The notes beneath the pieces are model-generated. The model was not told the DNA's origin. It saw only the letters and a list, made by a program, of their open reading frames with translations, and made no database searches. From contig CM022676.1 of the NCBI GenBank assembly GCA_012295275.1, forward strand, positions 17,484,001 through 17,548,000: DNA of 64,000 nt, given 5' to 3'. Positions 2,395-25,550 of the stretch are shown in pieces. Within the stretch, counting starts at the first letter, position 1; every line of letters begins with the position of its first letter. The stretch comes from Chrysomallon squamiferum. Taxonomy: Eukaryota; Animalia; Mollusca. The translations under genes were made by a program, and so were the position numbers.

Positions 2395-2600
2395 ACAAAA
2401 CATTTTTGTTACAATAAATGCACAAGTGATTAACGCCTACTAAAACACGAGAAAACCCCGATATGTTTTATCGGTTTCGGTAAAGGATTTCCCAAACATG
2501 CACAAGATGGAGAAAAATGTCAGCGCTGAGAACAGAATTGTGGATGTAAGTACTTCAGTACTGACAGAGGTACGAAGAATGTTTATAGCACATCAAGTGT
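2395..2600 (+). pseudogene. Transposase exon 1: degenerate THAP-like Zn finger
   Basis: One frame reads TKHFCYNKCTSD*R...GFPKHAQDGEKCQR*EQNCGCKYFSTDRGTKNVY, matching the CxxxxC..SDxR..FPK..EKCxRW..CGR..TK.Y THAP-like pattern. Confidence 0.75.
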
Positions 2601-3540
2601 GGAGCTCAGGTAGATCAACATTTTTCTTTATAATAAAAGTAAGGGGTGTGTCGGGGATTACGTTTTGACATGTCTGGTGTCTGGACAGTACCAACAGTGT
2701 CTGCTCAGTTTTGAACAAACATACATGAATCATTCCATAGAGTTTAGTTATATATATTTTAGTAAAACAATAATAATAGCAATAATAATAACAACAACGT
2801 TTATATGTTTACCTGTTTGTTGTTGTTTATTGTTGGTTAATTATTATTATTATTATTATTATTAATTGATTTTTTTTTTTTTAATCGTGAAGAGATTAAA
2901 TAAACTGATAAGCAAAAGTAAACTAAGAAACAAACAGATCACTTCACTTTCAGGTTCTATATTACTGCTTTGCAAAGTAAAACATGTTTTCTAAATATTT
3001 CCTGTACTAAATCATAAATATTTTATTTCATTTCATAATCTAATTATGGCTACAGTATTATAAAAGTAATTATAATTATGCTATTATTTTTTTTTTTAAT
3101 TATTATTATAATTGTTTTTTTTAAATAATTTACATGTTTAGTAATAGGAAATATACATCAGTTACCATTTATACCTAAACATTTTGTTGAAATATTAAAA
3201 TCAAACTGCAGTTTTAAAATGTCTGATACTAAGAGAACTGAGACAATGTTTTTTTTTTTTTTAGTTTCAAAAGGTCTGCTTGAAAGGTGGGTAGAAACTT
3301 GTATAAATTGTTTCCTCACAGCAAAGTCCAGTCTACGTTTGAGGAACTACTTAAAGCTCTGTTGACCTGTATCAAACCAAACCACAATGTCCTGAGACTT
3401 TGAAATAACCACATATGTAATGAGATAAACTCTAAAACACACTTCACAATTCAGGTTTACTTCTATCACATAACTCAGTACTCTGATGCACATACAGAAG
3501 GAAAGTCTGTCTGTTATCTGATAGAATTATACGTCAGTGA

Positions 3541-3595
3541 ATCACGTGCTGGTCACGTGTATGTGCTTGTCACGTGTCCTTCAGCTGACGTCAGC
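3541..3595. promoter_or_regulatory. Cluster of three CACGTG E-boxes plus palindromic CRE
   Basis: CACGTG at 3543, 3554 and 3571; TGACGTCA at 3586-3593 inside GCTGACGTCAGC. Confidence 0.5.
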
Positions 3596-4479
3596 CTGTC
3601 CTGTCAACAAGTTCACTAACATTCTGTGCTGTCCATTATGTTGTTTACAGATTCCACGTTATTATTTTTACATCAGAGAGGCTTTGTTTTCAGATTCCAC
3701 GTTATTATTTTTACATCAGAGACGCTTTGTCAGGCTTCCCTTTTGTGGCCTGCATCAACTTGATACTGAAGTATTTTGTCAGTTCTAGCAGTGATCATCA
3801 TAATCATGTACCTGTTTGTCAAAGATGAAGGAGTCATTTGCATTTAGCAGCATTTCCCAAACATGTTGTCTCATTCTTTAGGTGTCACCTGATGTTTTCT
3901 TCTAAGAGTCTTGTGTGTAAGAGTTGTCTTCAGTTGGAAAAATTGAGATGAATGATTTAATTAGAGCCTTTTCTTCATCTGATCTGTTATGTTTTGTTTT
4001 TATTTTGAAATATTTTTACATTAATTACAAACTATGTTATGAAAATAAAAATTGAGTGAAGCTGTGTTCATCATAATTAGTAAGTACTGTATAATAGTTA
4101 TTAATAAGATATATGATAGATTTATTTTGATACTGTCTGAGTTTTATTGACATGAATTTCTGTTGTGGACTCAGTCTTTTAAAGACTGATCAAGGTTCTT
4201 TAATGTTTAAGTCATTCTTCTAATTATTGGCTTTTTAATGTTTAAATATTTGTTTTTCATTCTTTCAATATTTTGTTAAAATATTTAAAATCATTTATGA
4301 TAATTTGAAATTTTATTTTTTCAATTTCTTGCTGTTATTATTTTAAAAGTTTAAAAGTACACTTTCTTTTTATTATTTTATTCTTACTATTCTGTAAAGA
4401 GAAAGTACTACTATTATATCATGATTAATATTAGAATTATGCAAGTGCCTGTTCTCATTATTATTATTATTATTAATAA

Positions 4480-4517
<38 letters not shown>

Positions 4518-6723
4518 TTAAAATACTAATAATGTAGTATTATTATAATTTGTAAAATGAATTTGTAGAAAGACTTAAAAGAATAGATGACATTCAGTCT
4601 GTTTTCACAGGAAGTCACTAAATACAATTGTTTATGAATTGTTCATGTTCTGAAATATAGATAACCATTGCTTTCTGTAACAAATGTTTGTTTAAAACTT
4701 AATATTGACTTAAATTTCTTTTTAAAGTGTTATTCTTGAGCTCAAAGAAAAGACATATGAAAAAAAAAATGAATAGTAATCACTAAGGACAGATGTCCAA
4801 AATTATTAAACTTTGTGTTTCTTAGTTGATTTAATGATGAGAGGTCATTTTTTTAATATTTTCATTTAAAGTTATTATTAACAGTTCTTGAATGCTAAAG
4901 TCTTGCTTAGATTTTTTATTTACAAAAGAGTAAATGTAAGCAGTGTTATCAGTACTTTTTTATTAGTTCAGTCTGAATATAAAATACCAGGATTTTAAAA
5001 TCAGTTAAAGTGTATTCACTGAATTTTCTACAAACAAGAATGACAAAGTTTATTAGTAAATGTGGCTTTGTAACATTAACATAAATACTGTTTTAAATTT
5101 AGTGCCACAAAAGGAAGGTCAGTTTGATGCAGTGTTTACAAATAAAATGTATGTGTTAAATTACATCAAAGTGTAAGATAACTTGTAACATAAGATATAA
5201 ACACAGTACTCTCCTAACAAAGCTTTAACAAAAAACTTTTCTATTTTTCTCATGTTGTATATAAAAACTAAAATCAGTTTGGAAATGGATGATATGTTGT
5301 TTGTTTCTTGCTGAAAGCATTGATGCAACATCAGTTCAGGTTTTGTTAACTTGCTAGTATTTATTCATTTTCTCTCTGCCAAAATCTTGGTTTTGCACAC
5401 TGTCTGGTGATAGTCATTATGTTATAGAATGACAGCTAGTCTCTGTTTTTCTGTATTAAATGACTTATCTTTTTGTTTGCACAATGGATCTGATGAAATC
5501 TCTTCTATTAATTTCACTTTAAAATGCATTGTCATCTTTTAGATCACTCTGACCATTATGAATGCAATAAACAACACAAAATGTGCTCACATGTATTTAT
5601 GCAGATTCTACTTTTCACACTAAATGTAAATGAGTGAATTTACTTAAGAATCACAGCACAACAAAAATAGTCTCGTTCATCCAGCTGAAGATATTATTAC
5701 AAGACATGGATCATTGTTTATTAATCCTTCAAAGAAGTGTGATCATTTCTTCTCACACTGTAGTCTAATTACACGCAAATTACTGCCATTGTTTAACAAG
5801 TGAAACTATTTCTAACACTGTGTGAAGAAAAATTCCTGGCAGGCTCAGTAAATTGTTACAGACACTGCAGACTAAATGGGTGATTCTCAACTGGAATTGC
5901 ACAAGCAGTGACATTTTTATTTTTATTGTGACACACTCTGTAAAGAAAAATTCCTCAGAGACTGAGTAAATTGTTAGATCTATCGATGATTCTCAATTGG
6001 GGTTCCACAAGAGATCTCTAGGTGTTCTGCAATAAACAGTGATAGATACACTAACCTATTTCTGATACATTTGTGTATTATTAAATGTGTGACTGGGTGA
6101 TTGAATCTTCTGGACATTTTTACCTTGATTTAGCTCAAATAAAAATACAATAATGTAATAGTTATCTGGTTTCATTCTTTTTTGTGTGTGTGTTTTACAC
6201 ATGTCATATTGGTTCTTTATATTTATTATTTTTGTGTTGTTCACAGATGTGTTATTTTTTTATTATTATTTTGTTTAATATTAACTTTTTAGTTTTTTAT
6301 ATATCTATCACTTGTAAGGTGAAATGTGTTCCAGTTAGATTAATTTAACATTAATTAATGAACTGTAACTATTATGTCATCGCAATACTGATTATTCTAA
6401 TATTATAATTATAACAGTAAAAAATGTAAATGCAAATAAATAATACAGAGCTAAATACTATATTAGTATGAGCTATATTCATAACTGCGATATTCATATT
6501 TACTATTTTCATATCCATGTTGAAATTCACTATAATTTTTGTTAAGATATATATATATATATATAAAAAAAATAATAATAATACAACAAAAAAAATAACA
6601 AGAACATGAAATAACTACAAAAAATATAAAACAAATATATTTTTTGGTAATTGGAAACATTAGAGCTTCGTTGGACCAGTTATTGGACAATATAATTGTC
6701 GTTTTAAATTTCTTTAATTTGTA

Positions 6724-6759
<36 letters not shown>

Positions 6760-7035
6760 AGATAAGAGAAATATGAAGAAATAGTATTTGATTAACATTC
6801 AGTATTAGTTCAAAACAAAAGTGTTACAGCCTTAAATACAAAATTACAACTATTTGCAGAACATGTATTTATAAATGATTGAATTAGTTATTATTCCCAG
6901 AATAAATTTAGTTTGAATTACATGCCTCTGAACTGGTTATAGTAAGTATAGATACATTGATATATACAGACATACATGTTGTAGGGAAAATATTTATTTG
7001 AAAATAACATCCAACTACATTTTTTAACATTTCAG

Positions 7036-7159
7036 CATTTTGTTGATAAGACTGGACAGTTATTTCCTGACCGATGACAAGCAGATCATTTTACTTCGAA
7101 CCCATAATCAGCCTGGAAGCCACCTTCAAAAAGAAGAAGTTAAATATGGCTACTCAAGG
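7036..7159 (+). pseudogene. Transposase exon 2 (THAP HF motif and basic linker)
   Basis: tttcag acceptor and gtaggt donor; reads HFVDKTGQLFPDR*...WKPPSKRR, supplying the HF that completes THAP. Confidence 0.65.
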
Positions 7160-7679
7160 GTAGGTTTAATTAGTTTAGCTTTGATTTGAAACACATGTGC
7201 CAACCTTTAATTTTCTTACATCTGTTCCAGTTTTCTTCATGCATAAGTAATCAAATCAAAACTTTCTTTATGAACCACAATCTACAAAAATATTCCACTA
7301 AACCATTACCAGGGGACTAATCATTTTTCAATCTAATTATAGTAATATTTTAAAAATACAATACATTTTTTTCTTTTATTACAAATGTGTATCTTTGTAA
7401 ACAAAGCTTTAACACTGCTTCTAGTATTTAATTAACAGTTAAATTATTGCTAATTATATTTATTGAGAGTATGAAATAAATAGAGAATTGCACAGTACAA
7501 GCCTATATGTTGATGTTATTTATTTAAATTAATGCTAACTGCTGCATTTTTGCATAGTTTAAATATTAATTTGTTTTAATTCAAGAATTTTGTTGCCATG
7601 TTTTTAATGTGACATGATTAACATGGAAAACAAGAGATATGCAGTTTTTATATTTATTGCACTGTTGTTGTTTTTTCAG

Positions 7680-7782
7680 ACAAGAAGCTGTTCTGTGTGT
7701 GGAGAATGAAAACTTTGAAGATAATGTTACCAAAGAAGTAGAGGACAGTTTGATATGTGATCCAGTCAAACTGATTCAAACT
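7680..7782 (+). pseudogene. Probable transposase exon 3 (acidic linker)
   Basis: ttttttcag acceptor, gtaaga donor, open acidic frame QEAVLCVENENFEDNVTKEVEDSL. Confidence 0.5.
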
Positions 7783-7997
7783 GTAAGAATAAACATAAAA
7801 AAATGGATCTGTACACAGAGAACAATGCTAACACATTTTTTTCCAGACTGCAAGTATACCATAATATTGTGAGATAAAAAAAATGGTGATCCACCTGGTA
7901 TTTCACACACAAACACACACACAGAACAAAATAACTCTCACTTAAAACGTACATTTATTAGCATAGTACTATTAAGTAATAAAATTCAGCACTGAAT

Positions 7998-8717
7998 TCA
8001 CAGTAGTTTCACATGTTGAAAACAAAAGTCATATAATCTGTTTAACATGTTCTGCATAAAAAGAGTATTAGAAATAATCCTCTAATAAACAAATCCTTTC
8101 TTGTGCACACCACAAATTCACTCAAATCAGCTCCAGACACCAGTAGTTGGCCCTGGACTTGAGAATAGCACATGTGGTCCTCTCTCACATGCAGTAAGTC
8201 AGTATTTTCAAGTTAAAAACTGGGGACAGCACATGCTTTTTCAGAGATCTCTGGCTGAATATGCAGACTTGATTGGTCCAGTTCTTTCCTTTCTCACACA
8301 CCTGTCTATCAGGTGTGGCACTTAGAACTTAAAAAGCTGAATTCACAATCAGGTCACATCATGAACTTGGTTAGCTGTCTTTTTTTGTAATGTTCTACAC
8401 CCTCTATTCAGCATTCTTCCCAGAGATAAATATTTTAATTAAACATAATAAAAATTTGTTTGTGAACTTTTACCATTTTAAAATAGTTCCCAAATTCAGA
8501 GCAGTCAATCGTTCTTTCCACTCTATAGCCAAAACAGAACTTCTGGCCTGATCTCTAATGTTTTTTCAGTCAGCAAACAATCAGCAAACAATCTAGTTAT
8601 TTTAGTGATTTGTCCTGCATATTGATCATTAAGAGTCACTATCAAAGGCTGTCTAAACTCCAGATTTCCACACACAGTTCCAACATGTTTTCCTGCAAAG
8701 TTTCTAAAATATTTTCC
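7998..8717 (-). pseudogene. YqaJ-like (lambda-exonuclease fold) nuclease, terminal exon, degenerate
   Basis: Minus-strand acceptor tttattatttcag; motifs ERLTALNLG, LSATPD, AYSARD, YSQVQGQLLVSGA..EFVVCT, FMQNMLNRLYDF; AATAAA downstream near 7955. Confidence 0.85.
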
Positions 8718-8933
8718 CTGAAATAATAAACAAAAAAGCATTAATAATTAATTAAATATAGTAAAACTGACACATATATACTGTCAGCAGATCTGTTAGA
8801 GCAATTTGAGGGAAGTAATTTTGAAGGATTTTTCTCCCTCTGTTTGCAAGGTAAAACTAACCAGTATATATATATGAAATGATAACATGCATTTAAAGCT
8901 TTAATTCACAAAAGGCATTTTTTTTTGTTTCAG

Positions 8934-11890
8934 GGGTTGAACCAGTGCATTTCTTGTTCTTAGTTGTGGAGAATACAATTCTGAAGACTGATATTAATAT
9001 GAAGAGGAAGCTAATGGAAAGTCAAAAAGAGTGTGAATTATTGTCCAAACAGAAAACACTTACTTTTTCAGTTGAAGTTGTTTCTCAAGATAAAAAATTT
9101 AAAAAAATTAAATCAACTTTTAAAATATTATACTGTGTTTGATAGAAAATCATTTATGGCACATTTAAATTCTTGTACCCAAATGTAATATTTTTACATA
9201 TATTGGGAAAGGGAATATTTCCCTAATAAACAGCTTCTCTTTAGGTAACCTGTTATTTCTTTCTCTGTGTAAGCTGTTATTTCTTACTCTGTGTAAGCTG
9301 TTATTTCTTACTCTGTGTAAGCTGTTATTTCTTACTCTGTGTAAGCTGTTATTTCTTACTCTGTGTAAGCTGTTATTTCTTACTCTGTGTAAGCTGTTAT
9401 TTCTTACTCTGTGTAAGCTGTTATTTCTTACTCTGTGTAACCTGTTATTTCTTACTCTGTGTAACCTGTTATTTCTTACTCTGTGTAAGCTGTTATTTCT
9501 TACTCTGTGTAAGCTGTTATTTCTTTCTCTGTGTAAGCTGTTATTTCTTACTCTGTGTAAGCTGTTATTTCTTACTCTGTGTAAGCTGTTATTTCTTACT
9601 CTGTGTAAGCTGTTATTTCTTACTCTGTGTAACCTGTTATTTCTTACTCTGTGTAAGCTGTTATTTCTAACTCTGTGTAAGCTGTTATTTCTTACTCTGT
9701 GTAAGCTGTTATTTCTTACTCTGTGTAAGCTGTTATTTCTTACTCTGTGTAAGCTGTTATTTCTTACTCTGTGTAAGCTGTTATTTCTTACTGTGTTATT
9801 TCTTACTCTGTGTAAGCTGTTATTTCTTACTCTGTGTAAGCTGTTATTTCTTTCTCTGTGTAAGCTGTTATTTCTTTCTCTGTTATGTTATTTCTTTCTC
9901 TGTGTAAGCTGTTATTTCTTACTCTGTGTAAGCTGTTATTTCTTACTCTGTGTAGTGTTATTTCTTACTCTGTGTAAGCTGTTATTTCTTACTCTGTGTA
10001 AGCTGTTATTTCTTACTCTGTGTAAGCTGTTATTTCTTACTCTGTGTAAGCTGTTATTTCTTTCTCTGTGTAAGCTGTTTATTTCTTACTTTATTTCTTA
10101 CTCTGTGTAAGCTGTTATTTCTTACTCTGTGTAAGCTGTTATTTCTTACTCTGTGTAAGCTGTTATTTCTTACTCTGTGTAAGCTGTTATTTCTTACTCT
10201 GTGTAAGCTGTTATTTCTTTCTCTGTGTAAGCTGTTATTTCTTTCTCTGTGTAAGCTGTTATTTCTTTCTCTGTGTAAGCTGTTATTTCTTTCTGTGTGT
10301 AAGCTGTTATTTCTTACTCTGTGTAAGCTGTTATTTCTTACTCTGTGTAAGCTGTTATTTCTTTCTCTGTGTAAGCTGTTATTTCTTTCTCTGTGTAAGC
10401 TGTTATTTCTTTCTCTGTGTAAGCTGTTATTTCTTACTCTGTGTAAGCTGTTATTTCTTACTCTGTGTAAGCTGTTATTTCTTACTCTGTGTAAGCTGTT
10501 ATTTCTTACTCTGTGTAAGCTGTTATTTCTTACTCTGTGTAACCTGTTATTTCTTACTCTGTGTAAGCTGTTATTTCTTACTCTGTGTAAGCTGTTATTT
10601 CTTACTCTGTGTAAGCTGTTATTTCTTACTCTGTGTAAGCTGTTATTTCTTACTCTTGTAAGCTGTTATTTCTTACTCTGTGTAAGCTGTTATTTCTTAC
10701 TCTGTGTAAGCTGTTATTTCTTACTCTGTGTAAGCTGTTATTTCTTACTCTGTGTAAGCTGTTATTTCTTACTCTGTGTAAGCTGTTATTTTCTGTGTGT
10801 GGCTGTTATTTCTTTCTCTGTGTAAGCTGTTATTTCTTACTCTGTGTAAGCTGTTATTTCTTACTCTGTGTAAGCTGTTATTTCTTACTCTGTGTAAGCT
10901 GTTATTTCTTACTCTGTGTAAGCTGTTATTTCTTACTCTGTGTAAGCTGTTATTTCTTACTCTGTGTAAGCTGTTATTTCTTACTCTGTGTAAGCTGTTA
11001 TTTCTAACTCTGTGTAAGCTGTTATTTCTTACTCTGTGTAAGCTGTTATTTCTTTCTCTGTGTAAGCTGTTATTTCTTACTCTGTGTAAGCTGTTATTTC
11101 TTACTCTGTGTAAGCTGTTATTTCTTACTCTGTGTAAGCTGTTATTTCTTACTCTGTGTAAGCTGTTATTTCTTACTCTGTGTAAGCTGAGGAATAATTT
11201 AGATCTGCCACACTCAGGACACAGATTTGGTCTTACTCAGCAAGTGACAGATATAATTTTCAATTCATGGCTCAACTGAATGTTTCTAAGGTTTGAAGAA
11301 GTCAGTATTTGGCCACAGAGATATATTTTATATGGAAACCTGCCTGATGACTACATGGAGGAGTTTCCTAATACTTTTGCTATAGTTTGCTGCACTGAAA
11401 TGAAATTTCAAAAATTCTCTTCACTGAAAGTCCAGTTCTAAATATCCAGTGACTACAAATCTGCTAACAGTCTGAAGTCACTAGCAGTTGTAGATTCCAC
11501 AGGCTGCATTATATTTAGTTCTGTGTCGTTTGGTGGTTCAATGTCTGACAAAGATATATTAATAAAAAGTGGTTCTCAGTCTACCCTTAAACAACTTGTT
11601 GAAAATCTGTTATCTTAATAAAGGGGATGGTATCATGGGTGATAAAAGTTTCGACATTAAAAAGTAAATTGAAGAAACAGGACTTAGATTAAATAGTCCA
11701 CCATTTCCAACATCAGGATCACAAATGAGTGAGCACGATGTACTTTTAACAAAGAAAATAGCAAAACATTGTGTACATGTTGAAAAACCTATCAGATACA
11801 TACAAGTTTTTAATATATTAAGTGGCAAATTTTCAGTGTGTATGATGTCTGCTATTGATCAAATATGGTATGTGTGTTCATTTAAAAAGA
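8934..11890 (+). pseudogene. Transposase last exon: HTH_Tnp_4 + DDE_Tnp_4 (Harbinger/ISL2EU-type), interrupted by a minisatellite
   Basis: gtttcag acceptor; FKYYT, LFLTLCKLRNN..RFG..IFNSWLN, IWP, FPNTFAIVCCTE (first catalytic D lost), SDYKS.NSLK, GGSMSDK, GDGIMGDKSFDI, LNSPPF, TKKIAKHCVHVEK, IDQIWYVC. Confidence 0.92.
9247..11189 (+). repeat. 24-bp minisatellite (ctgttatttcttactctgtgtaag)n, ~80 copies
   Basis: Directly visible, with few variants (ttct/tact, aacc/aagc, short deletions). Confidence 0.98.
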
Positions 11891-11951
11891 AAAATAATTC
11901 TAACACCATGTATTTAAAAAAAGTAAATTTACTACAACATGAAAGCCTTAC

Positions 11952-12091
11952 ATGTGTTGAAAGTCCACTGCCTGTAGGAACATTTCCAACATGTGTGTAT
12001 GGTATTTTCACAGATGTTTGTCAGATAGCTCATGGAAGATGCATGTAGACTTTTGAGGTGATCAGCATCTTCACTTTTAACTCTGACCTTC
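11952..12091 (-). pseudogene. Internal exon of the SWIM-YqaJ gene
   Basis: ttttacag acceptor and gtaagg donor; encodes HVGNVPTGSGLSTH, resembling the GxVPxGSxLSYQ motif upstream of YqaJ in these ORFs. Confidence 0.65.
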
Positions 12092-12519
12092 CTGTAAAAA
12101 AAACAATATGCTTATGACGATCATGTGACAAAATGAAATTAATAAAAGACAAGAATATTATTTTTAGTAAATGATAAAGTATAATAACAATATCACGTAG
12201 CATATTATGATAAATTATATCTGAATTGATATTTTACTACTGTGTACTTGCTCTACATACTGTAAACTTTATTGTAATAATGAATTGTTTAAACTGAACT
12301 TCTGTTGTTTTACTACATTTGTATACAATATCATCAGTTTGTCATGTTATTTTGATGTTTGTTCCATTTGGTTTATGTATTTATTTGTATCTGTTTTTGT
12401 ATTTCTTTCTTGCTGGTTTACAGAACTCATCACAAGACAACAAAGTAGATTTGTTTATTTACACACAAACACTGTCATTAACACTACAAAATGTCTGTTG
12501 TGAAAAGCACACAAACAAA

Positions 12520-12990
12520 TGTACTATGCCTGCAGTCTGTCAGTGTATTCTGCATTGGTCTTTTCTTTCAGTCTGGCTTTGGGTTGACAAATGTTATATG
12601 GGCACATCTGTACTGTGCCTGCAGTCTGTCAGTGTATTCTGCATTGGTCTTTTCTTTCAGTCTGGCTTTGGGTTGACAAATGTTATATGGGCACATCTGT
12701 AGCTGGGATCTTCAGACCTCTTGGCATATTGCACTGCTCTGGAAGTAACACTGAAGAAAGTTGTCTGGAAACTTCCATAAAACCCATCATCAGCCATTTA
12801 GAGCCAAGATAAACCCAACTACACGGGAACATGATCCACCAGATCTGCAATAAGATATTTATTTTAGTCTACATGTGTTTGGGTGTTGTGAAGTGTATTA
12901 ATTGTAAGAACTGCAGTACTGACAGGTACATGTCAGACCTGCACAGTGTAGACTACCAGCCCAACCCAGCATAGTCTCAGTGTAACAAGA
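12520..12990 (-). pseudogene. SWIM zinc-finger exons of the SWIM-YqaJ gene
   Basis: CTC near 12925, then acceptor ttattgcag at 12845 and SGGSCSRVVGFIL...LLPEQCNMPRG, resembling CxC..CSHV..SLPQQWxxPRG; includes an 89-bp tandem duplication at 12520-12698. Confidence 0.65.
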
Positions 12991-13029
12991 GTGAATAAAC
13001 AAATTACACACAATACACCATTAGTTAGC

Positions 13030-13225
13030 TTCATACACTGATTATTTGTTTATTTCATATATTCATATATATATATATATGAAATATACTTATCTCATAC
13101 ACTGATTATTTGTTTATTTCATATATTCATATATATATATATATATATATGAAATATACTTATCTCATACACTGATTATTTGTTTATTTCATATATTCAT
13201 ATATATATCAGATATACTTATCTCA
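13030..13225 (+). repeat. ~63-70 bp tandem repeat with (AT)n core, 3 copies (5 in mirror 54740-55070)
   Basis: ctcatacactgattatttgtttatttcatatattcatata...gaaatatacttat repeated. Confidence 0.85.
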
Positions 13226-13238
13226 TTGTGCACGGAAA

Positions 13239-13319
13239 CCAGTTCCCTTGCTCACCTGTAAGCCCAGGTAAACCATTATGAGCTGGATCTCCATGCTTAC
13301 CTTTTTCACCTGGAAAACT
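13239..13319 (-). pseudogene. Collagen-like Gly-X-Y fragment (mirror at ~54643-54723, +)
   Basis: Reads SFP GEK GKH GDP AHN GLP GLT GEQ GNW. Confidence 0.55.
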
Positions 13320-14364
13320 ACGAATTAATTTAAATATTTAATATGCAGTTAATGTCATTTCATTTCATTTCTTTCACTCTATTTTATTTCATTTATTGTA
13401 TTTATTGTATTTCATTTCATTAGAAAATAGCAAAGTATAATTTTAAAAATCCAGGACCTGCTGAAAGTGAGAGTAGCTGGATGCAAGTGAAGATTTTATA
13501 ACAAAGCTGGGATTCTTCCTCCAGTTTGTTCAGACTGTAGTCAGCTGATGTTTGAACAGACATCTTCAGAGTCAGGTAGACTTATAGTGTCTCACACCAG
13601 ATAACTCTGTGAAATAACTAAAACATATGATATACTGAAATTTATAAAAGATTTATACTTAACTTATCAAAGTTAATTATTTGTGAATAAAAAAAAAATG
13701 AACCAAAAGATGTTAAATGTTTATCATTGATAATAATAATAATAAAATTAAAATAGTTATAATGATGTAACAATAAGTATAAAAGAGTAAATAATACTAA
13801 GAACTAAACTAAAAAATAACAGTCATAATAAAACAAGAGTGGAATAATAGGTTTCCACAATTTTATCTATTTATTTTTCATTACTTTTACCATGCTTTGA
13901 ACATTTTAGAATAATTAATTAATGAATAAATATATTTACTTTCTTAAAAATATTATAAAACTTTTAACCAGAGCAACATGCTTTGAACTCTGGATTTTTT
14001 TCAGACAAACCTCAGTTGTTTCTTTTCTGATAAAAACAACAAAGCCAAAAGAGAAAAATAAAAGTATATCTGTACAGTCTTTGAAGCTTAATTTTAAAAG
14101 TATATTTACAACAATTAATAAATAAACCATATATATATATATATAATGTAGGAGTGACATTTTCATAAATTAAAAATAATTATCAATTTAAAAAAAAAAA
14201 GATATCTACCTCTGAATGATTGTCCAGTTTAAATAGAGGTGACATCATATCACCAGAAACAAACACAAATAAAAATGAAGGAAGATTTCCACTTTCAGAA
14301 ACAAGCAGTCAGTTTCTGAAATACTGAAGATAGAAATAACTGAGTTTTTTAAACATATAACAAC

Positions 14365-14462
<98 letters not shown>

Positions 14463-14699
14463 AGTAAGAAACCTAATATAGCTAATATAATTAATTATTA
14501 AACCTGAAAAAAAATAAAACATGGAAAGAAACCTCAGTTGGACAACTGTAAAACACACAGATATATTTAAAAACTTATTACTGTTGAACTGAAATATGAA
14601 AAATCAAAAAATAAAATTGTATGATCTCAGCATTATGAAGTTCAACAGGTAACAGCCAATGTCACAAAATATTAAAAGTTATCACAAGATGCAATTAGT

Positions 14700-15520
14700 G
14701 ATATGTTCCGTTTAAGCGACTGGGAAATTAAAAAAAAAAAAAAAAAAACTATGGGTTAGTCGCCAAAAACATATTATTTTGTTGACCGATATTTTCTACA
14801 GGTTATAATATAAGATCCACTGTTAATAATTTTATCGCAAATATTTATTTCACATAAAAGAATTGCTCGTAGTTCCATAAGTTGAACGTATCGGCTTACC
14901 TTAATTTGCCAACTTATATTTATAAACACTAATGCTACAAAAAAGCCAGCGAGCACTTCCAGCCCGATATGTTAAAGTTATCGGTTTGTTAACGGAACAA
15001 GTAATCGTAGGAGATAAATCTGTAACGAAGTATTTGCTATTGTTTTTCTTCTTCCATTCGAACAATTAATTGGCTAAGGTGAAACCAGGGAACAAATCTA
15101 GCGAACTTTTAACCCGTTAGGTTAAAGAATTATCGGTTGGTTAACTGAACAAGTAGTCATGGGAGATAACTCTATAACCTCGTATTTGCTATTGTTTTTC
15201 CTTTTCAGTTCCAGTAGGGTTACTTACCCGCAAGTCTCTCCACATCTTAACGGTAATAACTGTTATATTTTAGCAATGATCAAAATTCCTTGTAGTTAAA
15301 TATGTTCGTTTTACACAACCACTAACTAAAGGCTGACCGCTGTGTATTAATTACTTGCTGATAAAATTTGTTTTGTATAATGCAGTCATGCTTCCGGGTT
15401 CAGTTCGGGAGACATGTTTTCTCCAGTAATTCATGAAACATGGTTAACGTTAAAACCTAAAAACATTTTGCATAAATTTTGGAGGTGTTCAGCTATTATT
15501 CGTCATATATTGGCTATATT
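14700..15520 (-). promoter_or_regulatory. CpG-retaining promoter-like region with first-exon donor (mirror ~52470-53280, +)
   Basis: Local CpG retention, ETS-like CTTCCGG at 15391, strong GG|GTAAGT donor at 15223-15228 (-), internal diverged duplication 14970-15205. Confidence 0.45.
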
Positions 15521-15717
15521 TCGAATTTGAATTTTAAAATTAATTAATTTTTAAACAAATCCAGATTGATAATTATATATAATGAACAAAACTTGTCACA
15601 TGTATTTTTTTTTTATAAATAGAGAAATAAACAAGAACAATTTAGATGATGTTTTGGACGGCATTTGATATAGTGTTGTTTTAACAGGAATAAATAAATC
15701 AGTTTTACTACTGTTAG

Positions 15718-15789
<72 letters not shown>

Positions 15790-16049
15790 TTTGTCATTCT
15801 TAAATTAATTAATTGTATATAGTATAAAATAAATTATTTACTTTGCTCTGGTTCGACATAAAAAAAAATGTCATCTATACTTGGGTAAATTATGTTTGCT
15901 TATCTTTTAGATGTGAAACTAACAATTGTTCTTTGTTTCATTATATATTTTCTTTCCTTAATATGTGTAAAAAATAAATAGGTAAGGAAAATATATTAAG
16001 CTTATATAAATATTGGTGCATTAACAAATTATAACTGATACAATTCTAA

Positions 16050-17010
16050 GCAAGTTGATGAATAAATAGTGGCAATGTTTCTAGTGTTCAACATGAAGTA
16101 AGCTGATAAACTAATATAGATAATGTTTCTAGAGTTCACACTAAGTATGTTGATAAACTTGTAGTCACAATGTTTCTAATAGTCAACATTAGGTAAGTTT
16201 ATAAACAAATAGTGACAGTGATTCTACAGTTCACACTAATTATGCTGCTAAACTGACAGTGATAGTGATTCCAGAGTTCACACTAATTATGCTGATAAAC
16301 TTGTAGTCACAATGTTTCTAATTAAGTAAGTTTATAAACTAATAGTTATAGTGATTCTACAGTTCACACTAAGCATGCTGATAAACTGACAGTGATAGTG
16401 ATTCTACAGTTCACACTAAGTATGCTGATAAACTGACAGTGATAGTGATTCTACAGTTCACACTAAGTATGCTGATAAACTGACAGTGATAGTGATTCTA
16501 CAGTTCACACTTAGTATGCTGATAAACTGACAGTGATAGTGATTCTACAGTTCACACTATGCTGATAAACTGACAGTGATAGTGATTCTACAGTTCACAC
16601 TAAGTATGCTGATAAACTGACAGTGATAGTGATTCTACAGTTCACACTTAGTATGCTGATAAACTGATACTGATAGTGATTCTACAATTCACACTAAGTA
16701 TGCTGCTAAACTGACAGTGATGGTGATTCTACAGTTCACACTAAGTATGCTGCTAAACTGACAGTGATAGTGATTCTACAGTTCACACTATATATACTGA
16801 TAAACTGACAGTGATAGTGATTCTACAGTTCACACTAAGTATGCTGATAAACTTGTAGTGACACTGTTTCTAGTAGTCACCACTAAGTAAACTGATAAAC
16901 TAATAGTGACAGTGATTCTACAGTTCACACTAAGTATGCTGATAAACTTGTAGTGACAATGTTTCTAGTAGTTCACACTAAGCCAGCTGCTAGTAGTGAA
17001 ACACTGACAG
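16050..17010 (+). repeat. 47-bp minisatellite, ~20 copies (mirror 51170-51950 has fewer)
   Basis: Unit gattctacagttcacactaagtatgctgataaactgacagtgatagt. Confidence 0.95.
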
Positions 17011-17830
17011 TAAGTTATTTCATCAGAAGATTGAAAGAAAGAAATAACATCACATCTTTTAAGCTTAGAATCAGATTTATTTACTAATCTAAAATGTTGT
17101 ATACAAGTCTGTGAAACTTAATATCAGAATATGATGAACTTTGTGTTATACTGAAAATGATTTTAACAAACTTTACAAAGTATGTTAATTCTTATTTATT
17201 TTATATGTCTATTTTTCTTTCTTTCCTCTCATTTTTATTCAAATATTATTAAATGAATTTACTTTTAAGGTGCTTTTACTTTACAGAAATATGCAGTGAC
17301 CAAGAATATTAATGAAAACCTGTCAATTTTGTGTGTCTTTGTGTGAGTGTGTGTGTTTTTATTAGTATGTGTCAAGTGTGACTTACTTTTGTCTTAAAAT
17401 GTTAATGAAGCTGTGTAAATCTTAACATAGGGAATTATAATTTGATTGAGACATCTTTGTTGATGTCTCTGAACTGTTATAAACTTGAGCTGAGAAGTAA
17501 AAGACTTTGCTGTTTGTTGTAAAATATTTTAACACTGTTAACAGAACACTACTTTATCACACTCTAGTGTTGATTGTTTTCTGATAAGAAGAAAGAAAGG
17601 CTAGTGCAGTTTATGGAATGTGACACAAACACTCAGATGACAGGTGTTAATCAAGGAGATGTATGTGGACTAAAAAATATAAAATGCAGTATATAGCCGA
17701 GGCAAAACATTTTAAATTGTTTTCATTTTATATGTAGTTTTCTGTTAAAGAAATGTCATCAGTGGAATCATTATTAACATACTCTTTTGTGATTTTTATT
17801 TTTTACAATTTTTAGTTTTTATTCACTCAG

Positions 17831-18095
17831 ATGCAGACAGTTGTATTGCAGCAGAAGGCTGCATCGATGACATCGGCAGTTAATGTGATACAGTGTCCGG
17901 ATCAGACAACAACTGCATTGCAAGCAGCCAGTGTCATTCAGTCTCAGCCACGTGTACAGCAACCAGCAGCATCAGTGACATTGTTATTGTAACTGACACA
18001 CCTGATATGTGATTTCTGAAACAAATTAGGATAAAACAGACAAAGTTTGTTTGTGCTGGATAATGTAAACAGCAAACCAGTAGAATTTATAGAAG
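17831..18095 (+). pseudogene. Exon-like segment, possibly a Cys-rich extracellular repeat remnant
   Basis: ctcag acceptor and AG|gtgagt donor; DADSCIAAEGCIDDIGS*CDTVSGSDNNCIASSQCHSVSATCT contains stops. Confidence 0.3.
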
Positions 18096-18388
18096 GTGAG
18101 TTAAAAGATTAATTATAGTTATAACATTTTATTATATTTTTAATTTATATGACTCAAGTTTAATAATAAAACTTTCTTGTATTTGTAAGACTTCTAGTGA
18201 TAAAACTTATCTCTAATGTATGACTTTAGTCTAGTTATAAAAGTTATTACATTTATGATTAGAAGACTTCAGTTCCGTTACAAAATTTCATTACAAAGTT
18301 TAGCCTCCAGGGACCATATTTAGTTGAAATCTGACAGTTTGTTTAGCCTCATTAAACAAACTGATATCTCTAAATAAGTACTGAGAGG

Positions 18389-18428
<40 letters not shown>

Positions 18429-20004
18429 TGATCAAGATTTAGCATTTATTCTAATTGACTGAACATTTTAATTCTTTAATTTTATAATGTCATAGTACTT
18501 TCATTTATTTCAATATTCTGTGATCAAATCAAAAGTGGCATATTTTGTTTTATGATTTACTAAGTGAGGTGTCTGTGTGTTATACAATCAAGGTGTTCAA
18601 GTCTGTATTTAGAAAATACAAATAGCAGAATATAATATTTTGTTAAAGATGACTGGTGTGGTTCATACCATTCTGCTACTACTGGATTTTAACAGTGTAT
18701 CATCCAAACTTCTTTCTTATTTACTAGATCACAGCTCTGATTTCAAATTACTTCACAAAATCTTGTATATAAATTCAAAATTATTGTACTGTTTATAGCT
18801 TAGAAATAATATGAAAAAGATATTTAAACTAAATGACAGTCTTAAAATTAATTTCTTATTTTATACGTGCTAGATGTTTACTTTAAAAATGTAAAAAGTA
18901 AAATTTGTCATGAGCAGTCCGAGATGGCAATTACATCTACATGTTAAAAAGAGAACAAATCATTTGATAAAATATTTAAATTTTCTACAAAAATCTTAAA
19001 TGTTCAATTATTATATTCCAAATTCCTATAACGTTTCAGCAAAAACATAATGTAACAGTTTTGTTTCAATATACTAATAAGCTGAAATGAAACAAAATAA
19101 TAAAACAACAAAAACACTTGTACAAGATTAATATTAAATATGTTTTATGTAGCTACCAGAATATTTAAAAAAAACAAATGAACAAGTAAATAAAGTGAAA
19201 ATGTATAGATTAGTTTAATTACTGAAACATTAGTCTTAATCATTATAGTAAAGTTATTAAGGACTAGTTAGTAAGACAAATAAAAACAAACAGTATGCAC
19301 ATTTAGTACACAAACTAAACATTTGAGATACCTGGCATTAAAAATTAAATTATGCAAATAATTATCTTAACAGAGAAATAATAATAAAATAATGGATAAT
19401 TTCTCTCCTCGAAAAAAAAAAAAAAAACCATTGTCATATTATAACAAGAAGTTAGCTCCCCTTACACCAGCTTCATAAATAAGCACATATAAGTAAAATG
19501 CAAATAAAATTAATTAAAATATTTTACTGCAGTAAATAAATTTAAAATGTAATCATCGTGAATAATGTTTAATGTTGATAATTATTGTTCCGAGATATCG
19601 ATTGTGTAGGTCATGGTTATGCGTTAATTTCCCCATATTAGAGAGTGCACCACATTCGAGCAGTACGTCAACCAGTGCTTTACTAAACATCTGTGGATTC
19701 ATTACTACAGTAGACTATTTCGAAACATTATGTTAAGAAATTTTAAGAACAAAGTGAAAAAAAAACAATATTAATAAAATGATGATTTACCGAGTTGAAA
19801 CTATTTTGCTATCTTACCTATGTTGTAGTAGTAGTAGTAGTAGTAGTAGTAATAATAATAATAAATGCCAGTTTAGATAAACGATTTCAGAGTCATCACA
19901 TACATACATACATACATACATACGTACATACACACATATACATGTACATTCAAACATGCACATATCTACAGACACACACGTTTAATTTCTTTGTTTTTCT
20001 TCAT

Positions 20005-20597
20005 TTGTAGTGGTATCAATAATATGTAATAGCAGTAGTAATAATAGTAACAATAATCTGTAATAGTAGTGGTAGTACTGGTATCAGTAGAATGTAATAC
20101 TTGTTGTAGTGGTATTAATAATATGTAATAGTAGTAGTAGTTGTGGTATCAATTATATGTAATAGTAGTAATAATGGTATCAATAATATGTAATAGTAGT
20201 AATAATATGTATAGTAGTAATAATATGTATAGTAGTAGTAGTAATATAATATAGTAGTAGTAGTAGTAGTAGTAGTAGTATCAGTAATATGTAATAGTAG
20301 TAGTAGTATTAATAAAATGTAATAGTAGTAGTATTAGTATTAATAACATGTAATAGCAGTAGTAGTATTAATAATATGTAATTGTAGTAGTGGTATCAAT
20401 AATATATAATAGTAATAGCAGTGGCATCAATAATATGTAATAGTAGCAGTAATAATGGTATCAATAACATATAATAGTAGTAGTAGTAGTATTAATAATA
20501 TGTAGTAGTAGTAGTAGTAGTGGTATCAATAAAATGTAATAGTATAGTAGTGGTATTAATAATATCTAATAGTAGTAGTAGTATTAATAATATGTAT

Positions 20598-20629
<32 letters not shown>

Positions 20630-20695
20630 ATAATATGTAGTAGTATTAATAATATGTAATAGTAGTAGTAGTATTAATAATATGTAGTAGTGGCA
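20005..20695 (+). repeat. Compound (AGT)n/aataatatgt degenerate tandem repeat (mirror 47590-48165)
   Basis: Repeated tagtagtagtattaataatatgtaa variants. Confidence 0.9.
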
Positions 20696-20865
20696 GTGGA
20701 ATGGTCTCACAGTAGCACCAAATAGAGATCACTGTATTAATTGTAATAATGGTTTTCATAGTAATTATTTTTATATACATTTACCAGTACATACTCACAC
20801 GTTGATACGTTGATATATACATACATTCACACAGACATTCACATACGTACGAATATACATACCCC

Positions 20866-20898
<33 letters not shown>

Positions 20899-21381
20899 TT
20901 AGACTGACGCACACATGCACTTAGACTCACACAACTGTGTATTAGATCTCACTGTGTGGATAAACTACAGACATGTTTACTATCACTTTCTTCTCAAACA
21001 TAAGTTGTTTAACAAACGAACTTCTCAAATACGCGACACAACGTGCTAGTGAATCTGATCTGATTTCACAGTGAAAATACTCACTGCCAGACTGCGTTAC
21101 ATAATTACATTAGTTACAACAACATGTCTGTGTAACAAGTATATTTGTAACATGTATTGTGGGGTGGGATTTGCGGTTTGTCAAACACCCCCACACACAT
21201 CCACATTTGAGACGTCATGATTGGACTTTGTTCTCCTGTGTCAGTGTGTTGCTGAGTATTCTGTGTGCAGCATAATTAAAAGTATCCAGATGTCCTTTCA
21301 TAAGTATAAAGTAAAAGAGCAGTATAACATATTGATGTCCATTATATACTGTTTATTCCATTCTAACAACATATAATACTA

Positions 21382-21445
<64 letters not shown>

Positions 21446-22105
21446 TAAAAACGCGTTTCTTTCAGTTCATTTGGAATGAAAAACCCGATAAGATAGAACA
21501 AATATTAGTTCGCGATTTTATTGATTTAAGAGCAATGAATGTTATGTTGTAATGCACTAAAATATCGTTGGTTACAAGTGTGTTTAAACCAAGACATTAT
21601 CTCTCTTTTAAGTGATCATTTACAATATAGGGCTTCGCTCATTTTTGTTTTTGAGTCAGTCTATAGCAAAACAAAATCGTTGCTATGCACGAAACCCTAT
21701 TGAAATAAATGTGTTATGTATACATGTTATATCTACGTGTTATCTTCTTCCACTCAAGGTAACTACACACACTCGTCTTAGATATTTTCAGTACGAGATC
21801 TTGTTATTTATCTTAACAACAAATAAGTAATTGGTATTATATGGTATAAAAGGTTCAGAGAAATTTTAATTTTGTATTATGTCTAGTAAAGATTTAAGGC
21901 ACATCTTTTGATTATGTAAACAACTTCAGACATTCTGTAAATATATCATAACAATTTAGCGACAGAAAATGGAATCATATGCATTTTTAAATTAGTTTTC
22001 TGTTTATGCACTTTTGTATGTTTCTTACAGTAACACATATTTGAATTCATTTCACAAACATTTACTACTAGGACTGTCTAGGACATTTATTATTATTATT
22101 ATTAC

Positions 22106-22187
<82 letters not shown>

Positions 22188-24165
22188 GATATTGTAGAAA
22201 CTTATCTATTTAGCACATTAATTTACTTTAGTTGTTTTTTTATATTCAAATGGATTAGCATACAGAAAGAGGGTAACCATTTGTCCCTGCCTCCGACTTA
22301 AACAAGGATAACGCAAAATCTAGTTACCAACATAGTTGTCTAATAATGGCCGCGAACTCGACCGTCCCACGCGTTCTCTGTGTCTTTGTCTTTTCTTTGA
22401 TCCCCCCCCGGGCTCTTTTGTCTCTTACTTAAATAAACTTAATGCGTATCAATGGCGGAGTCGAGAAAAATTCCTTTTGTCTCTCGCTAATGATAGTTAA
22501 TTTTTAAAAGATTTCATTAATTGGATTACTGTTAACTAACAATACATATTAGATTAATATATACTGTTAGGAATTTTTGTAGAAATGAATGGGCAACATA
22601 TTCACTTACTTTAACGGTACATACAGTTTAGTTATGATATCTTAGACTGTATTAAAGTAAGCTATTTAATTAAATAATCATTATCTTTCCGATATTATCA
22701 AAAACTGTATCTTACTGGTACAACAATATCAAATATTATAATAAGTAAACAAAAGAAATAGCTACTAGCGGATTCTAGAAGTAGGTATAAATTAAATTGC
22801 AATCCGTGGTTTAATAAATTAGTTGGGACCAATTTTCTAACTTAAACACCACAGAAGACAGTACATCTAAATATCGCTGAGAAATCTTTCCACAGCTTGA
22901 TCGCGTATCCTATTAGGGTATAGTTAAGGTCTCTACTGCGTGAGGTAAGAAAACAGTTTGCCGTCTTAGTTGTATTATTGTATACTGTATTTTATGTGGT
23001 GACTTAAAATATAATAAAAAGAAAGAAAGAAAGAAAACAAATACAAATAAATAATCAAATAAAAAGGAATAAGTGAAACCAATAAATAATTTAAAAAAAA
23101 TAAAAATAAACACAAACTAAAAATAAAAATTATTTCTCCAAGTGATGAGTAGAAGTGTTAATATTTGAACAATGATTATTATTTTCGTTTCTGTTTTTAT
23201 GTTTATATTCAGGCCCTACACATATATATTTTATTATATTATATTATATTATATCACACTCACACACACACAACATAAATAATAAACGTGGTTTTGCGTT
23301 TAGGTCGCTTTGACTCAAAACATGTACAAATAAAAGAGGGTCCCATATTTTCTGATTCACCATTACATTGCATTTTTCACGATGCTAGGTATAACGTTTC
23401 CTGTCGCCAGTACTATTAACATGCTATTTTTTATCTGACCTACATAACAGATACTTGTTAGCGATTAGTTTTTCATCAATATAGTGTGAGAAATAAATGT
23501 ATTACATACAAAATAAGTAATGACAAATATATATATATATTTAACAGGTTCGAAACACAAGTTACATTATACGGGACACATTGTATGCAACAAAATATGT
23601 GCATGTATTTACCACTAAAGGTGGCCTGACCTGTACGACATCTGATTTCAATCACGTGTTTATGAGCAGACGACATTGTAAACAGCGATACACAGAAGAT
23701 ATTTCAGTGACCTGTCAAACAGGACGTTGTCAGTTCCAGGAAAACACTCACCAAGCAAGGACGCACTTTCTTAGGCAGACAGCCATTTTGAAATTTGAAG
23801 GTATTTTGTATTTTATTGTAATTTAACATATGCGGTACAATTATTACTTTGCTTAAATCAGATCAGACATTTTGAATTTGAAATCTATTTTGTCAAGGCT
23901 ATACAGTTTTTGTGTGAATTGTCTTTAACGATTTTATTTGTTTTAGATTTCTTATACCTAACACACTGGTTTATGATAAATATCGAAGAATAGTTAATAA
24001 TAACAACACCAACAACAACAACAACAACAATAAATAAAAAAAATACTAATAGGAAATAAAAGTACTAAGAACAAATAAAAATAACAATGGTATCGTGATT
24101 ATAATAATAATTATTATTGTATTAGTAGTAGTACTAGCAGTAGTTGTAATAGTATCACCTAAATA

Positions 24166-24510
24166 CAGGTACCGGACCAATTATAGGTACTCCTTGGGGC
24201 CTGAGGCATTCCGAATTTCTGGATCTTCCGGTTTTCTCGTGCCAAGGCATCTAAGTTCGTAAATATTTAGGCATAAACATTTTATTTAAAAAAAAAAAAA
24301 AAAAAAAAGAAAATTGACGACACACAACTGTGGCGACTCGACACGTAAACAATGCGGCGAGTGAATGAACAGCACGCGGCTTGAAAGAGTAGTTACGGTC
24401 TGATGAGGACAAAACCCGCGCGCGCAAAATATGAAAATTACGTCGGGGAAAAGTTCCGGTTTTCTGGTCTTTCGGGATTTCAGAACGCCGGATAATTTGT
24501 CCGGTATCTG
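24166..24510. mobile_element. MITE, Tc1/mariner-like (TA target site)
   Basis: TA|CAGGTACCGGACCAATTAT ... ATAATTTGTCCGGTATCTG|TA terminal inverted repeats; no ORF. Confidence 0.8.
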
Positions 24511-24774
24511 TAGAGTTCAGTGTATCGTTTATAGTTTATACTCTATCTGATTATTTCATGTTACTTTGTGTCATTTTATTTATATATTTATTAATTAATA
24601 AAATTCTTTATTGATTTATTGATCCCTCATCTCTGTGATCAATAGTAGAGTTAAACAGAAATTACTCGTTTCTAAGAAATTATCGATCAGAACATTTTTC
24701 AGGTAAGTAACTATTTGGATACTACAATGTGTTTTATATTGTGTTAATTTAATTTAATTTAATTTAATTTAATA

Positions 24775-24821
<47 letters not shown>

Positions 24822-25439
24822 TATCTATTTGCGTGTGTTCATCTCAGTCTTTCTTTCTTTCTTCATTAGTTTCTTCCTGCTTATCTAACGTTCCTATTGG
24901 AATATCACCCGTTCCAGCCAGTGTATAATATGTTATTGTATTTTTTAATATTTTTGTTTTTTATCGCTGTTATTGATAATCATATAATAAACAGTATTAC
25001 AACGTGAGGCTTTTTAAAGGTATGGAACGTGCCAAAAGAAGATGTGATAATATTATCTTATATCATAGTATTGTTTTCTATTTACGAGTTTGTTAGTTTG
25101 TTCTGTTTATTGGAAATAATTGGGTTGTCTATATCTTCTTCCATGAAATGATGACAAATGTAAATATTTTCATATTTTCAAGGGTTTATTTCTACACTAA
25201 TGGGCAGAGAGTTTTTTAACAATGAATTTATCAGATCGTTGTAAATAACACCCGAGTTTATCTTTGTGTTTCTCATATAGAAGTTACACGCTATTTTTAT
25301 CTGGCCTACATTACAAACAAACGTCACGTGTTAGCTTAACTTGATATACTGGTCATGTAAGCATCGTCAGGGAAATAAAATAGGTACACGTATATTTAGT
25401 GCACTGTAAAATTTATTTCTTCCACCTCTGCACGCCACT

Positions 25440-25550
25440 GCACTTGATGACGTGTAAATTATCTGACGTCACTCGCGTGTTTATCAGTGGAGGATTTTGA
25501 GAACCAAAAGAACACAAAGCAGAAATAAAACAAGTCGGCCATATTGAAAG
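25440..25550 (+). promoter_or_regulatory. CRE + YY1-like module of the BTB upstream region (orphan copy)
   Basis: TGACGTCA 25464-25471 and GGCCATATTG; homologous to 32100-32205 and 42525-42615. Confidence 0.45.

What the first reader, a model, noticed from the sequence alone, without database searches (positions are those of the whole stretch)
2395..12990. Two-gene transposon with mutually nested, antisense genes
Seen: plus-strand transposase exons (THAP 2395-2600, 7036-7159, 7680-7782, HTH-DDE 8934-11890) interleave with minus-strand nuclease exons (SWIM ~12990-12520, 12091-11952, YqaJ 8717-7998). The YqaJ catalytic exon sits in the last transposase intron, and the whole DDE exon sits in the last YqaJ intron. 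Canonical splice signals face each other at 8718-8720 and 8931-8933. Known: ISL2EU elements pair a THAP-DDE_Tnp_4 transposase with a YqaJ nuclease. Inference: this zipper layout makes the genes physically inseparable and their pre-mRNAs overlap antisense over ~4 kb, which could give transcriptional interference or dsRNA autoregulation. I do not know whether this layout has been described.
Basis: partly seen in the sequence, partly recalled or inferred. Interest (0 to 1): 0.8.

Follow-up and report, generated by a model that had tools for sequence, protein, structure and literature searches.

The report
Transposon with two interlocked antisense genes
This is a broken copy of an animal jumping gene (ISL2EU type) whose two facing genes each carry the other's enzyme-coding exon inside their own last intron; an intact relative and a whole branch of the family share the layout, RNA shows one of the nesting introns being spliced, the layout likely arose from one internal reshuffle, and any regulatory effect is untested.

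Summary
The window has a decayed ISL2EU element ordered THAP exons (+), YqaJ exon (-), HTH-DDE exon (+), linker and SWIM exons (-). One RNA contig joins 11952 to 8717 at a GT-AG intron that spans the whole DDE exon. The layout is not local: 7 of 80 related loci show it, including a complete element with terminal repeats, AT duplication and two open genes (L005); 43 of 80 are ordinary tail-to-tail pairs. The two layouts split on one branch (100/99), and the nesting intron sits at one position. Which layout is ancestral is unresolved. RNA contigs also suggest a 20-nt frameshifting micro-exon lying antisense inside the transposase exon. Corrections: the window copy is dead, its ends and first nuclease exon were not found, almost half of the 4.2-kb overlap is a satellite, and either catalytic exon could be deleted alone. 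A test for purged antisense splice or poly(A) signals was negative. Ten paper searches found no description; Repbase was not available. This scan noted the layout before on other DNA (e1-9813892, e1-9882226). New variant of a known kind.

The parts
2395..2609 (+). Transposase exon 1 (THAP, decayed; start approximate)
   Evidence: Best window hit of a THAP-exon profile, small margin; tblastn E 0.059; GT donor at 2610
7036..7159 (+). Transposase exon 2 (end of THAP)
   Evidence: AG/GT ends; best profile hit, small margin; covered by RNA contigs of X8 and X9
7680..7782 (+). Transposase exon 3; its donor opens the intron that holds the YqaJ exon
   Evidence: AG/GT ends; its 3' end continues in frame into the conserved W-V-E-P motif of exon 4 seen in P0004, P0006, P0009
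7998..8717 (-). Nuclease exon 4 (YqaJ catalytic domain, frameshifted), inside transposase intron 7783-8933
   Evidence: tblastn E 6e-23 with P0124; profile score 202.8 vs 32.6; RNA junction at 8717
8718..8933 (.). 216-nt spacer that is intronic for both genes, with back-to-back splice acceptors (37-138 nt in five relatives)
8934..11926 (+). Transposase exon 4 (HTH and DDE; stops, frameshifts, first catalytic Asp replaced; end approximate), inside nuclease intron 11951-8718
   Evidence: Pfam; tblastn E 3e-79 with P0004; translation
9064..9083 (-). Candidate 20-nt micro-exon of the nuclease gene, antisense inside the transposase exon; inclusion would shift the frame of the YqaJ exon
   Evidence: Joint 8715-9063 in RNA contigs of X8 and X9, X9 continuing from 9081 to 11952; GTAAGT donor; only candidate from a motif scan of this stretch
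9245..11189 (+). Tandem array, 81 copies of a 24-nt unit taken from the HTH coding sequence
11952..12091 (-). Nuclease exon 3 (linker); its donor opens the intron that holds the DDE exon
   Evidence: tblastn E 2.6e-5; profile; RNA loose end identical to 11952-11980
12530..12844 (-). Nuclease exon 2 (second half of SWIM; 89-bp tandem duplication; donor degenerate, low end approximate)

Best explanation
This is a dead copy of an ISL2EU cut-and-paste transposon from a branch whose two facing genes each carry the other's catalytic last exon inside their own last intron, a layout that likely arose from one internal duplication-and-loss event and was then likely kept because neither last intron can be lost without deleting the other gene's enzyme. 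Shown: exon order, splice sites, one spliced nesting intron in RNA, the same layout in intact relatives, one intron position, one branch. Inferred: in active copies a promoter near each end drives transcription inward and each transcript splices out the partner's catalytic exon. Inferred: duplicating the inner DDE+YqaJ block and losing the first DDE and second YqaJ copy converts the tail-to-tail order into the nested order; the same steps run backwards, and I put nested-as-derived at about 0.65. Predicted: because each polymerase must cross about 2.3 kb of the other gene, the genes damp each other and antisense splicing errors such as the 20-nt micro-exon occur; I take these as side effects, not as the reason for the layout.
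For: Window anatomy. RNA contig joining 8717 to 11952 at GT-AG, in frame with spliced homologues. 7 of 80 loci nested, 43 tail-to-tail, 4 with SWIM but no YqaJ downstream, 26 unreadable. L005: repeats starting GG, AT on both sides, 494-aa transposase and 498-aa nuclease open across four canonical exons each; L003 nuclease open for 485 aa. GT follows the linker motif in 9 of 9 nested-branch sequences where the motif was matched (11 examined) and 0 of 6 tail-to-tail loci (7 examined); L005 has the donor too. One change of layout on the tree, 100/99 support. 17 of 29 tail-to-tail loci with both hits carry SWIM and YqaJ in one uninterrupted frame.
Against: Rooting on three bacterial IS5-type transposases put the root inside the nested group, which would make tail-to-tail the derived state; holding the nested rows together was not rejected (p-AU 0.128), so direction is open. 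The transposase junction 7782-8934 was not among the RNA joints shown (tables cut). RNA support is one contig for the direct junction, from one study, unstranded and probably from other copies of the family. No purging of antisense splice or poly(A) signals was found. No intermediate of the proposed duplication was seen among the 80 loci.
Confidence: 0.75

Rival explanations
1. The layout is kept by selection as a built-in control: head-on transcription, antisense RNA pairing, or the frameshifting micro-exon sets the ratio of transposase to nuclease and limits jumping.
For: The layout persists across transposases only about 43-57% identical to P0001. The shared spacer stays short, 37-216 nt. 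In L002 and L008 the transposase stop lies 9-11 nt from the nuclease exon-3 donor, and in 5 of 9 sequences scored the first poly(A)-like signal lies beyond that donor, so mature mRNAs would overlap. RNA contigs show both the direct and the micro-exon forms.
Against: In 3 of those 9 the signal comes before exon 3 and in 1 none was found. A micro-exon candidate was found in only 2 of 7 relatives scanned, two close kin, at another length. No purging of antisense signals. Persistence is also explained by the difficulty of undoing the layout. Tail-to-tail relatives spread without it.
Confidence: 0.25
2. The nested layout is the ancestral ISL2EU state, and the mostly intron-free tail-to-tail elements arose from it by the reverse reshuffle and intron loss.
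For: Outgroup-rooted tree: tail-to-tail rows form one clade (100/99) inside a paraphyletic nested group.
Against: The outgroups are about 23-30% identical, long-branched and compositionally odd, and the root falls on a long nested row; nested monophyly is not rejected; midpoint rooting of 101 rows put the nested branch inside tail-to-tail rows. Two intron-free genes side by side are the simpler start for genes of prokaryotic or viral type (inference).
Confidence: 0.3
3. The pattern is local: two nested insertions or a rearrangement in this decayed copy.
For: The copy is heavily decayed, its ends were not found, and its right part lies in an inverted duplication.
Against: Same order and same intron position in independent loci including the complete element L005; spliced RNA and spliced homologous proteins cross the intron.
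Confidence: 0.02

Closest known systems
ISL2EU group of the PHIS (PIF/Harbinger-ISL2EU-Spy) superfamily (PMC4482050, PMC4122938, PMC9179366)
   Same: THAP-HTH-DDE transposase plus YqaJ-type nuclease; in L005, repeats starting GG, AT duplication and about 4.7 kb length, as PMC4482050 describes.
   Different: The passages read describe two ORFs without exon order; 'nested', 'overlap', 'intron' and 'orientation' occur 0 times in the main text of PMC4482050. Here the genes are interlocked through their last introns; 43 of 80 relatives are not.
Repbase IS4EU/ISL2EU consensus entries (for example IS4EU-1_BF and IS4EU-2_DR, listed in Table S2 of PMC4482050)
   Same: Protein sizes listed there (426-475 aa transposase, 512-515 aa YqaJ protein) are close to L005's, and teleost transposases fall in the nested branch.
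   Different: Their exon coordinates could not be seen. They may already show this layout without comment.
PIF/Harbinger two-gene elements with variable gene order (PMC2213677)
   Same: Same superfamily; the order of the two ORFs varies between lineages (passages).
   Different: The partner is a Myb/SANT protein, and the passages read show whole-gene order changes, not mutual nesting.
Nested and interleaved host gene pairs (recalled, not from a call)
   Same: Exons of one gene inside introns of an opposite-strand gene.
   Different: Here the nesting is reciprocal, involves both catalytic exons and travels as one mobile unit of under 5 kb.

Membership tests
ISL2EU | Transposase with HTH and DDE_Tnp_4 domains | tested here: met
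   Pfam hits; 56% identity to P0001
ISL2EU | N-terminal THAP domain | tested here: met
   Weak in the window: best profile hits at the predicted exons by small margins, no Pfam hit. Clear in relatives: P0015 THAP E 8.8e-9, L005
ISL2EU | Second gene with a YqaJ exonuclease domain | tested here: met
   Window aligns to P0121-P0124; P0121-P0123 hit Pfam YqaJ at E 1e-13 to 1e-18
ISL2EU | Terminal inverted repeats starting GG | tested here: inconclusive
   Not found in the window; present in L005
ISL2EU | AT target-site duplication | tested here: inconclusive
   Window ends unknown; AT flanks both repeats of L005; no empty site examined
ISL2EU | DDE domain groups with Repbase ISL2EU references | not testable with these tools
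   No Repbase or Dfam sequences are held
Potentially active ISL2EU copy (two intact ORFs, PMC4482050) | Both reading frames open | tested here: not met
   Window copy has stops, frameshifts, a replaced catalytic Asp and a 1.9-kb array; met in L005
Mutually nested gene pair | Nuclease intron that spans the DDE exon is spliced | tested here: met
   One X9 RNA contig joins 8717 to 11952
Mutually nested gene pair | Transposase intron that spans the YqaJ exon is spliced | tested here: inconclusive
   GT-AG ends, in-frame motif continuity and an open L005 model, but no RNA joint among the rows shown

The most novel reading that the evidence does not exclude
A widespread animal transposon lineage encodes its own dosage control in gene architecture: the two enzymes are interlocked so that transcription of one throttles the other, and a frameshifting exon hidden antisense in the transposase coding sequence switches the nuclease gene to a form with the SWIM finger but no nuclease domain.
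Probability: 0.15. Interest if true: 0.75.

Novelty: new variant of a known kind. Interest (0 to 1): 0.52.

Why it matters
Reciprocal nesting of two catalytic exons in a 4.7-kb mobile element is an unusual, conserved gene architecture that splits ISL2EU into two structural types. An intact element such as L005 and its tail-to-tail relatives form a natural pair for testing whether head-on transcription or antisense overlap limits transposition, and what the nuclease does. It also explains why ORF-based annotation sees an isolated YqaJ frame upstream of a THAP-less transposase. The window copy itself is dead.

Tried and rejected
No whole genome is held, so no copy collection, consensus or empty-site search was possible. 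Pfam on single frames found no THAP, SWIM or YqaJ; phmmer with one YqaJ frame found 0 proteins. Viral contigs gave no relative. The 3 genome-contig hits are eukaryote-type DDE with SWIM or YqaJ and were not used as outgroup. No terminal repeats in the window. First nuclease exon not found: best score 28.2, at background; 12845-12990 rejected as a SWIM exon for lack of homology. Depletion of antisense donors, acceptors and AATAAA against 200 synonymous shuffles: not significant in 10 nested vs 28 (of 43, after removing near-copies) tail-to-tail DDE exons, nor in 4 vs 21 YqaJ regions; the one p under 0.05 of ten tests was the sense-strand donor control. No intron at the nesting position in the sister tail-to-tail loci, so no pre-existing intron can be named as breakpoint. 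The 101-row tree is the quick search only. RNA was laid only on 6900-9240, so junctions outside it were seen only as loose ends. Paper searches with no description of the layout. PMC1470744 is not held.

Full report
Setting. The window is AT-rich DNA with spliceosomal introns and microsatellites. No assembly is held. The nearest named homologues are mollusc and fish proteins.

Observation. Pfam confirms the plus-strand HTH-DDE exon but not THAP, SWIM or YqaJ in any of 25 single frames, because the copy is broken. With intact relatives the minus-strand exons are clear: P0124 aligns to 8711-8007 (E 6e-23 for the main part), 12093-11952 and 12849-12526, and P0121-P0123, which carry Pfam YqaJ and a weak SWIM, align to the same places. 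A frameshift-tolerant profile scan over both strands put nuclease exons 2, 3 and 4 far above background, the two THAP exons first by small margins, and nuclease exon 1 nowhere. Introns 2610-7035, 7160-7679, 7783-8933 (plus) and 11951-8718 (minus) have GT-AG ends. So the YqaJ exon lies in the last transposase intron and the DDE exon in the last nuclease intron. Corrections: exon 1 ends at 2609; the SWIM-side exon starts at 12844; the acceptors are back to back; 1,945 nt of the DDE exon is a 24-nt array. The copy is dead: stops, frameshifts and a Cys in place of the first catalytic Asp. Its ends were not found, and its right part is repeated, inverted, at 56397-41734.

RNA. Contigs of 4 of the 11 listed runs (two RNA, two probably DNA) were laid on 6900-9240. 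Many diverged contigs show a multi-copy family. One contig of RNA run X9 ends at 8717 and goes on with 29 letters identical to 11952-11980. That is the predicted intron over the DDE exon, and it is in frame with spliced homologues. A second joint, 8715 to 9063, appears in X8 (depth 11) and X9 (6.4), and X9 continues from 9081 to 11952 after two letters. This reads as a 20-nt minus-strand exon at 9083-9064 with a GTAAGT donor; a motif scan of that stretch returned only this candidate. Inclusion would shift the frame and stop about 24 codons into the YqaJ exon. Limits: both RNA runs are from one study, contigs are unstranded, the sides are short, the transcripts differ from the window copy, and the tables were cut (110 loose ends not shown). 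The transposase junction 7782-8934 was not among the rows shown.

Relatives. A transposase alignment matched 437 metagenome stretches; the best 80 were returned. Profiles class 7 as nested, 43 as tail-to-tail, 4 as SWIM without YqaJ downstream and 26 as unreadable. L005 is a complete element: inverted repeats starting GG, AT on both sides, and four canonical exons per gene, open for 494 and 498 aa, in nested order. L003's nuclease is open for 485 aa. GT follows the linker motif in 9 of 9 nested-branch sequences matched (of 11 examined; L005 and L019 unmatched) and 0 of 6 tail-to-tail loci (of 7 examined). In a 36-row tree (window, 7 nested loci, L002, L008 and L009, which have that donor, and 25 of 43 tail-to-tail loci after removing near-copies) the layout changes once, support 100/99. 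In the 101-row quick tree all 20 added proteins, chosen as close hits of P0001 and so biased, fall in the nested branch; they include molluscs, a hemichordate and teleosts whose DNA I could not read.

Mechanism. Shown: anatomy, one spliced nesting intron, one branch, one intron position. Inferred: promoters at both ends fire inward and each transcript splices out the partner's catalytic exon. The two orders differ by a swap of two neighbouring blocks with their orientation kept, which a simple inversion cannot give; duplication of the inner block with reciprocal loss can, in either direction. Bacterial outgroups rooted the tree inside the nested group, but nested monophyly was not rejected (p-AU 0.128), so direction is open. 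I favour nested as derived (about 0.65), since 17 of 29 tail-to-tail nucleases are one frame. Once nested, neither last intron can be lost and no single break separates the genes, which is enough to explain persistence. Either catalytic exon could still be deleted alone. The primary transcripts would overlap by about 4.2 kb here and 2.3 kb without the array. Poly(A)-like signals suggest overlap of mature mRNAs in 5 of 9 sequences. Selection against antisense splice or poly(A) signals was not detected, and micro-exon candidates are not conserved (2 of 7 relatives). Regulation is therefore possible but unsupported.

Literature. PMC4482050: first quarter of the main text, a term search, a supplement search and part of supplement 1 with Table S2. 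PMC4122938, PMC9179366, PMC5718144, PMC2213677: passages only. They define ISL2EU by two ORFs, GG-starting repeats and AT duplications, and the passages give no exon order. Figures are not held, so the structure drawing in PMC4122938 Fig. 4C was not seen. Ten searches found no description of nesting. Repbase entries may show it; I could not check.

Earlier scan notes. e1-9813892 and e1-9882226 report the same layout in mussel and clam windows. I saw them after one search had shown the pattern in relatives. My tests agree on layout and branch; they leave the direction of change less certain than 'arose once' suggests.

Verdict. Real, conserved and unusual architecture in a known transposon group; a new variant of a known kind; regulatory role untested. 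Interest 0.52.

Noticed in passing
window 9245-11189: A 24-nt piece of the transposase HTH coding sequence (8 codons) is amplified 81 times in tandem.
   Followed up: partly
window 11609-26369 and 56397-41734: Inverted duplication of about 15 kb, mostly 92-95% identical, carrying the right part of the element and flanking DNA.
   Followed up: partly
window 13256-13309 (-), duplicated near 54.7 kb: A 54-bp Gly-X-Y collagen-like exon with AG/GT ends; weak Pfam Collagen hit, E 0.0086. No other such exon found in the window.
   Followed up: partly
window about 17831-17985 (+): Exon-like, Gln-rich stretch after a pyrimidine tract and AG; a likeness to CREB-type Q domains is recalled, not tested.
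   Followed up: no
L057, L062, L081, L082: Tail-to-tail elements with SWIM right after the DDE gene and no YqaJ between them; L062 is nearly identical in DDE to L033, which keeps YqaJ. L081 and L082 lie in contigs of a bacterial metagenome assembly.
   Followed up: no
P0124, P0125: Database gene models that fuse this nuclease to host proteins (syntaxin-binding protein 1b in a pipefish, KCTD5-like in a clam); read-through annotation or exon capture.
   Followed up: no
L004:400-620: A palindromic insertion sits in the shared spacer and disrupts the start of the YqaJ exon.
   Followed up: no
window 12520-12701 and 16096-16982: An 89-bp tandem duplication in nuclease exon 2 and a 47-bp minisatellite.
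   Followed up: no
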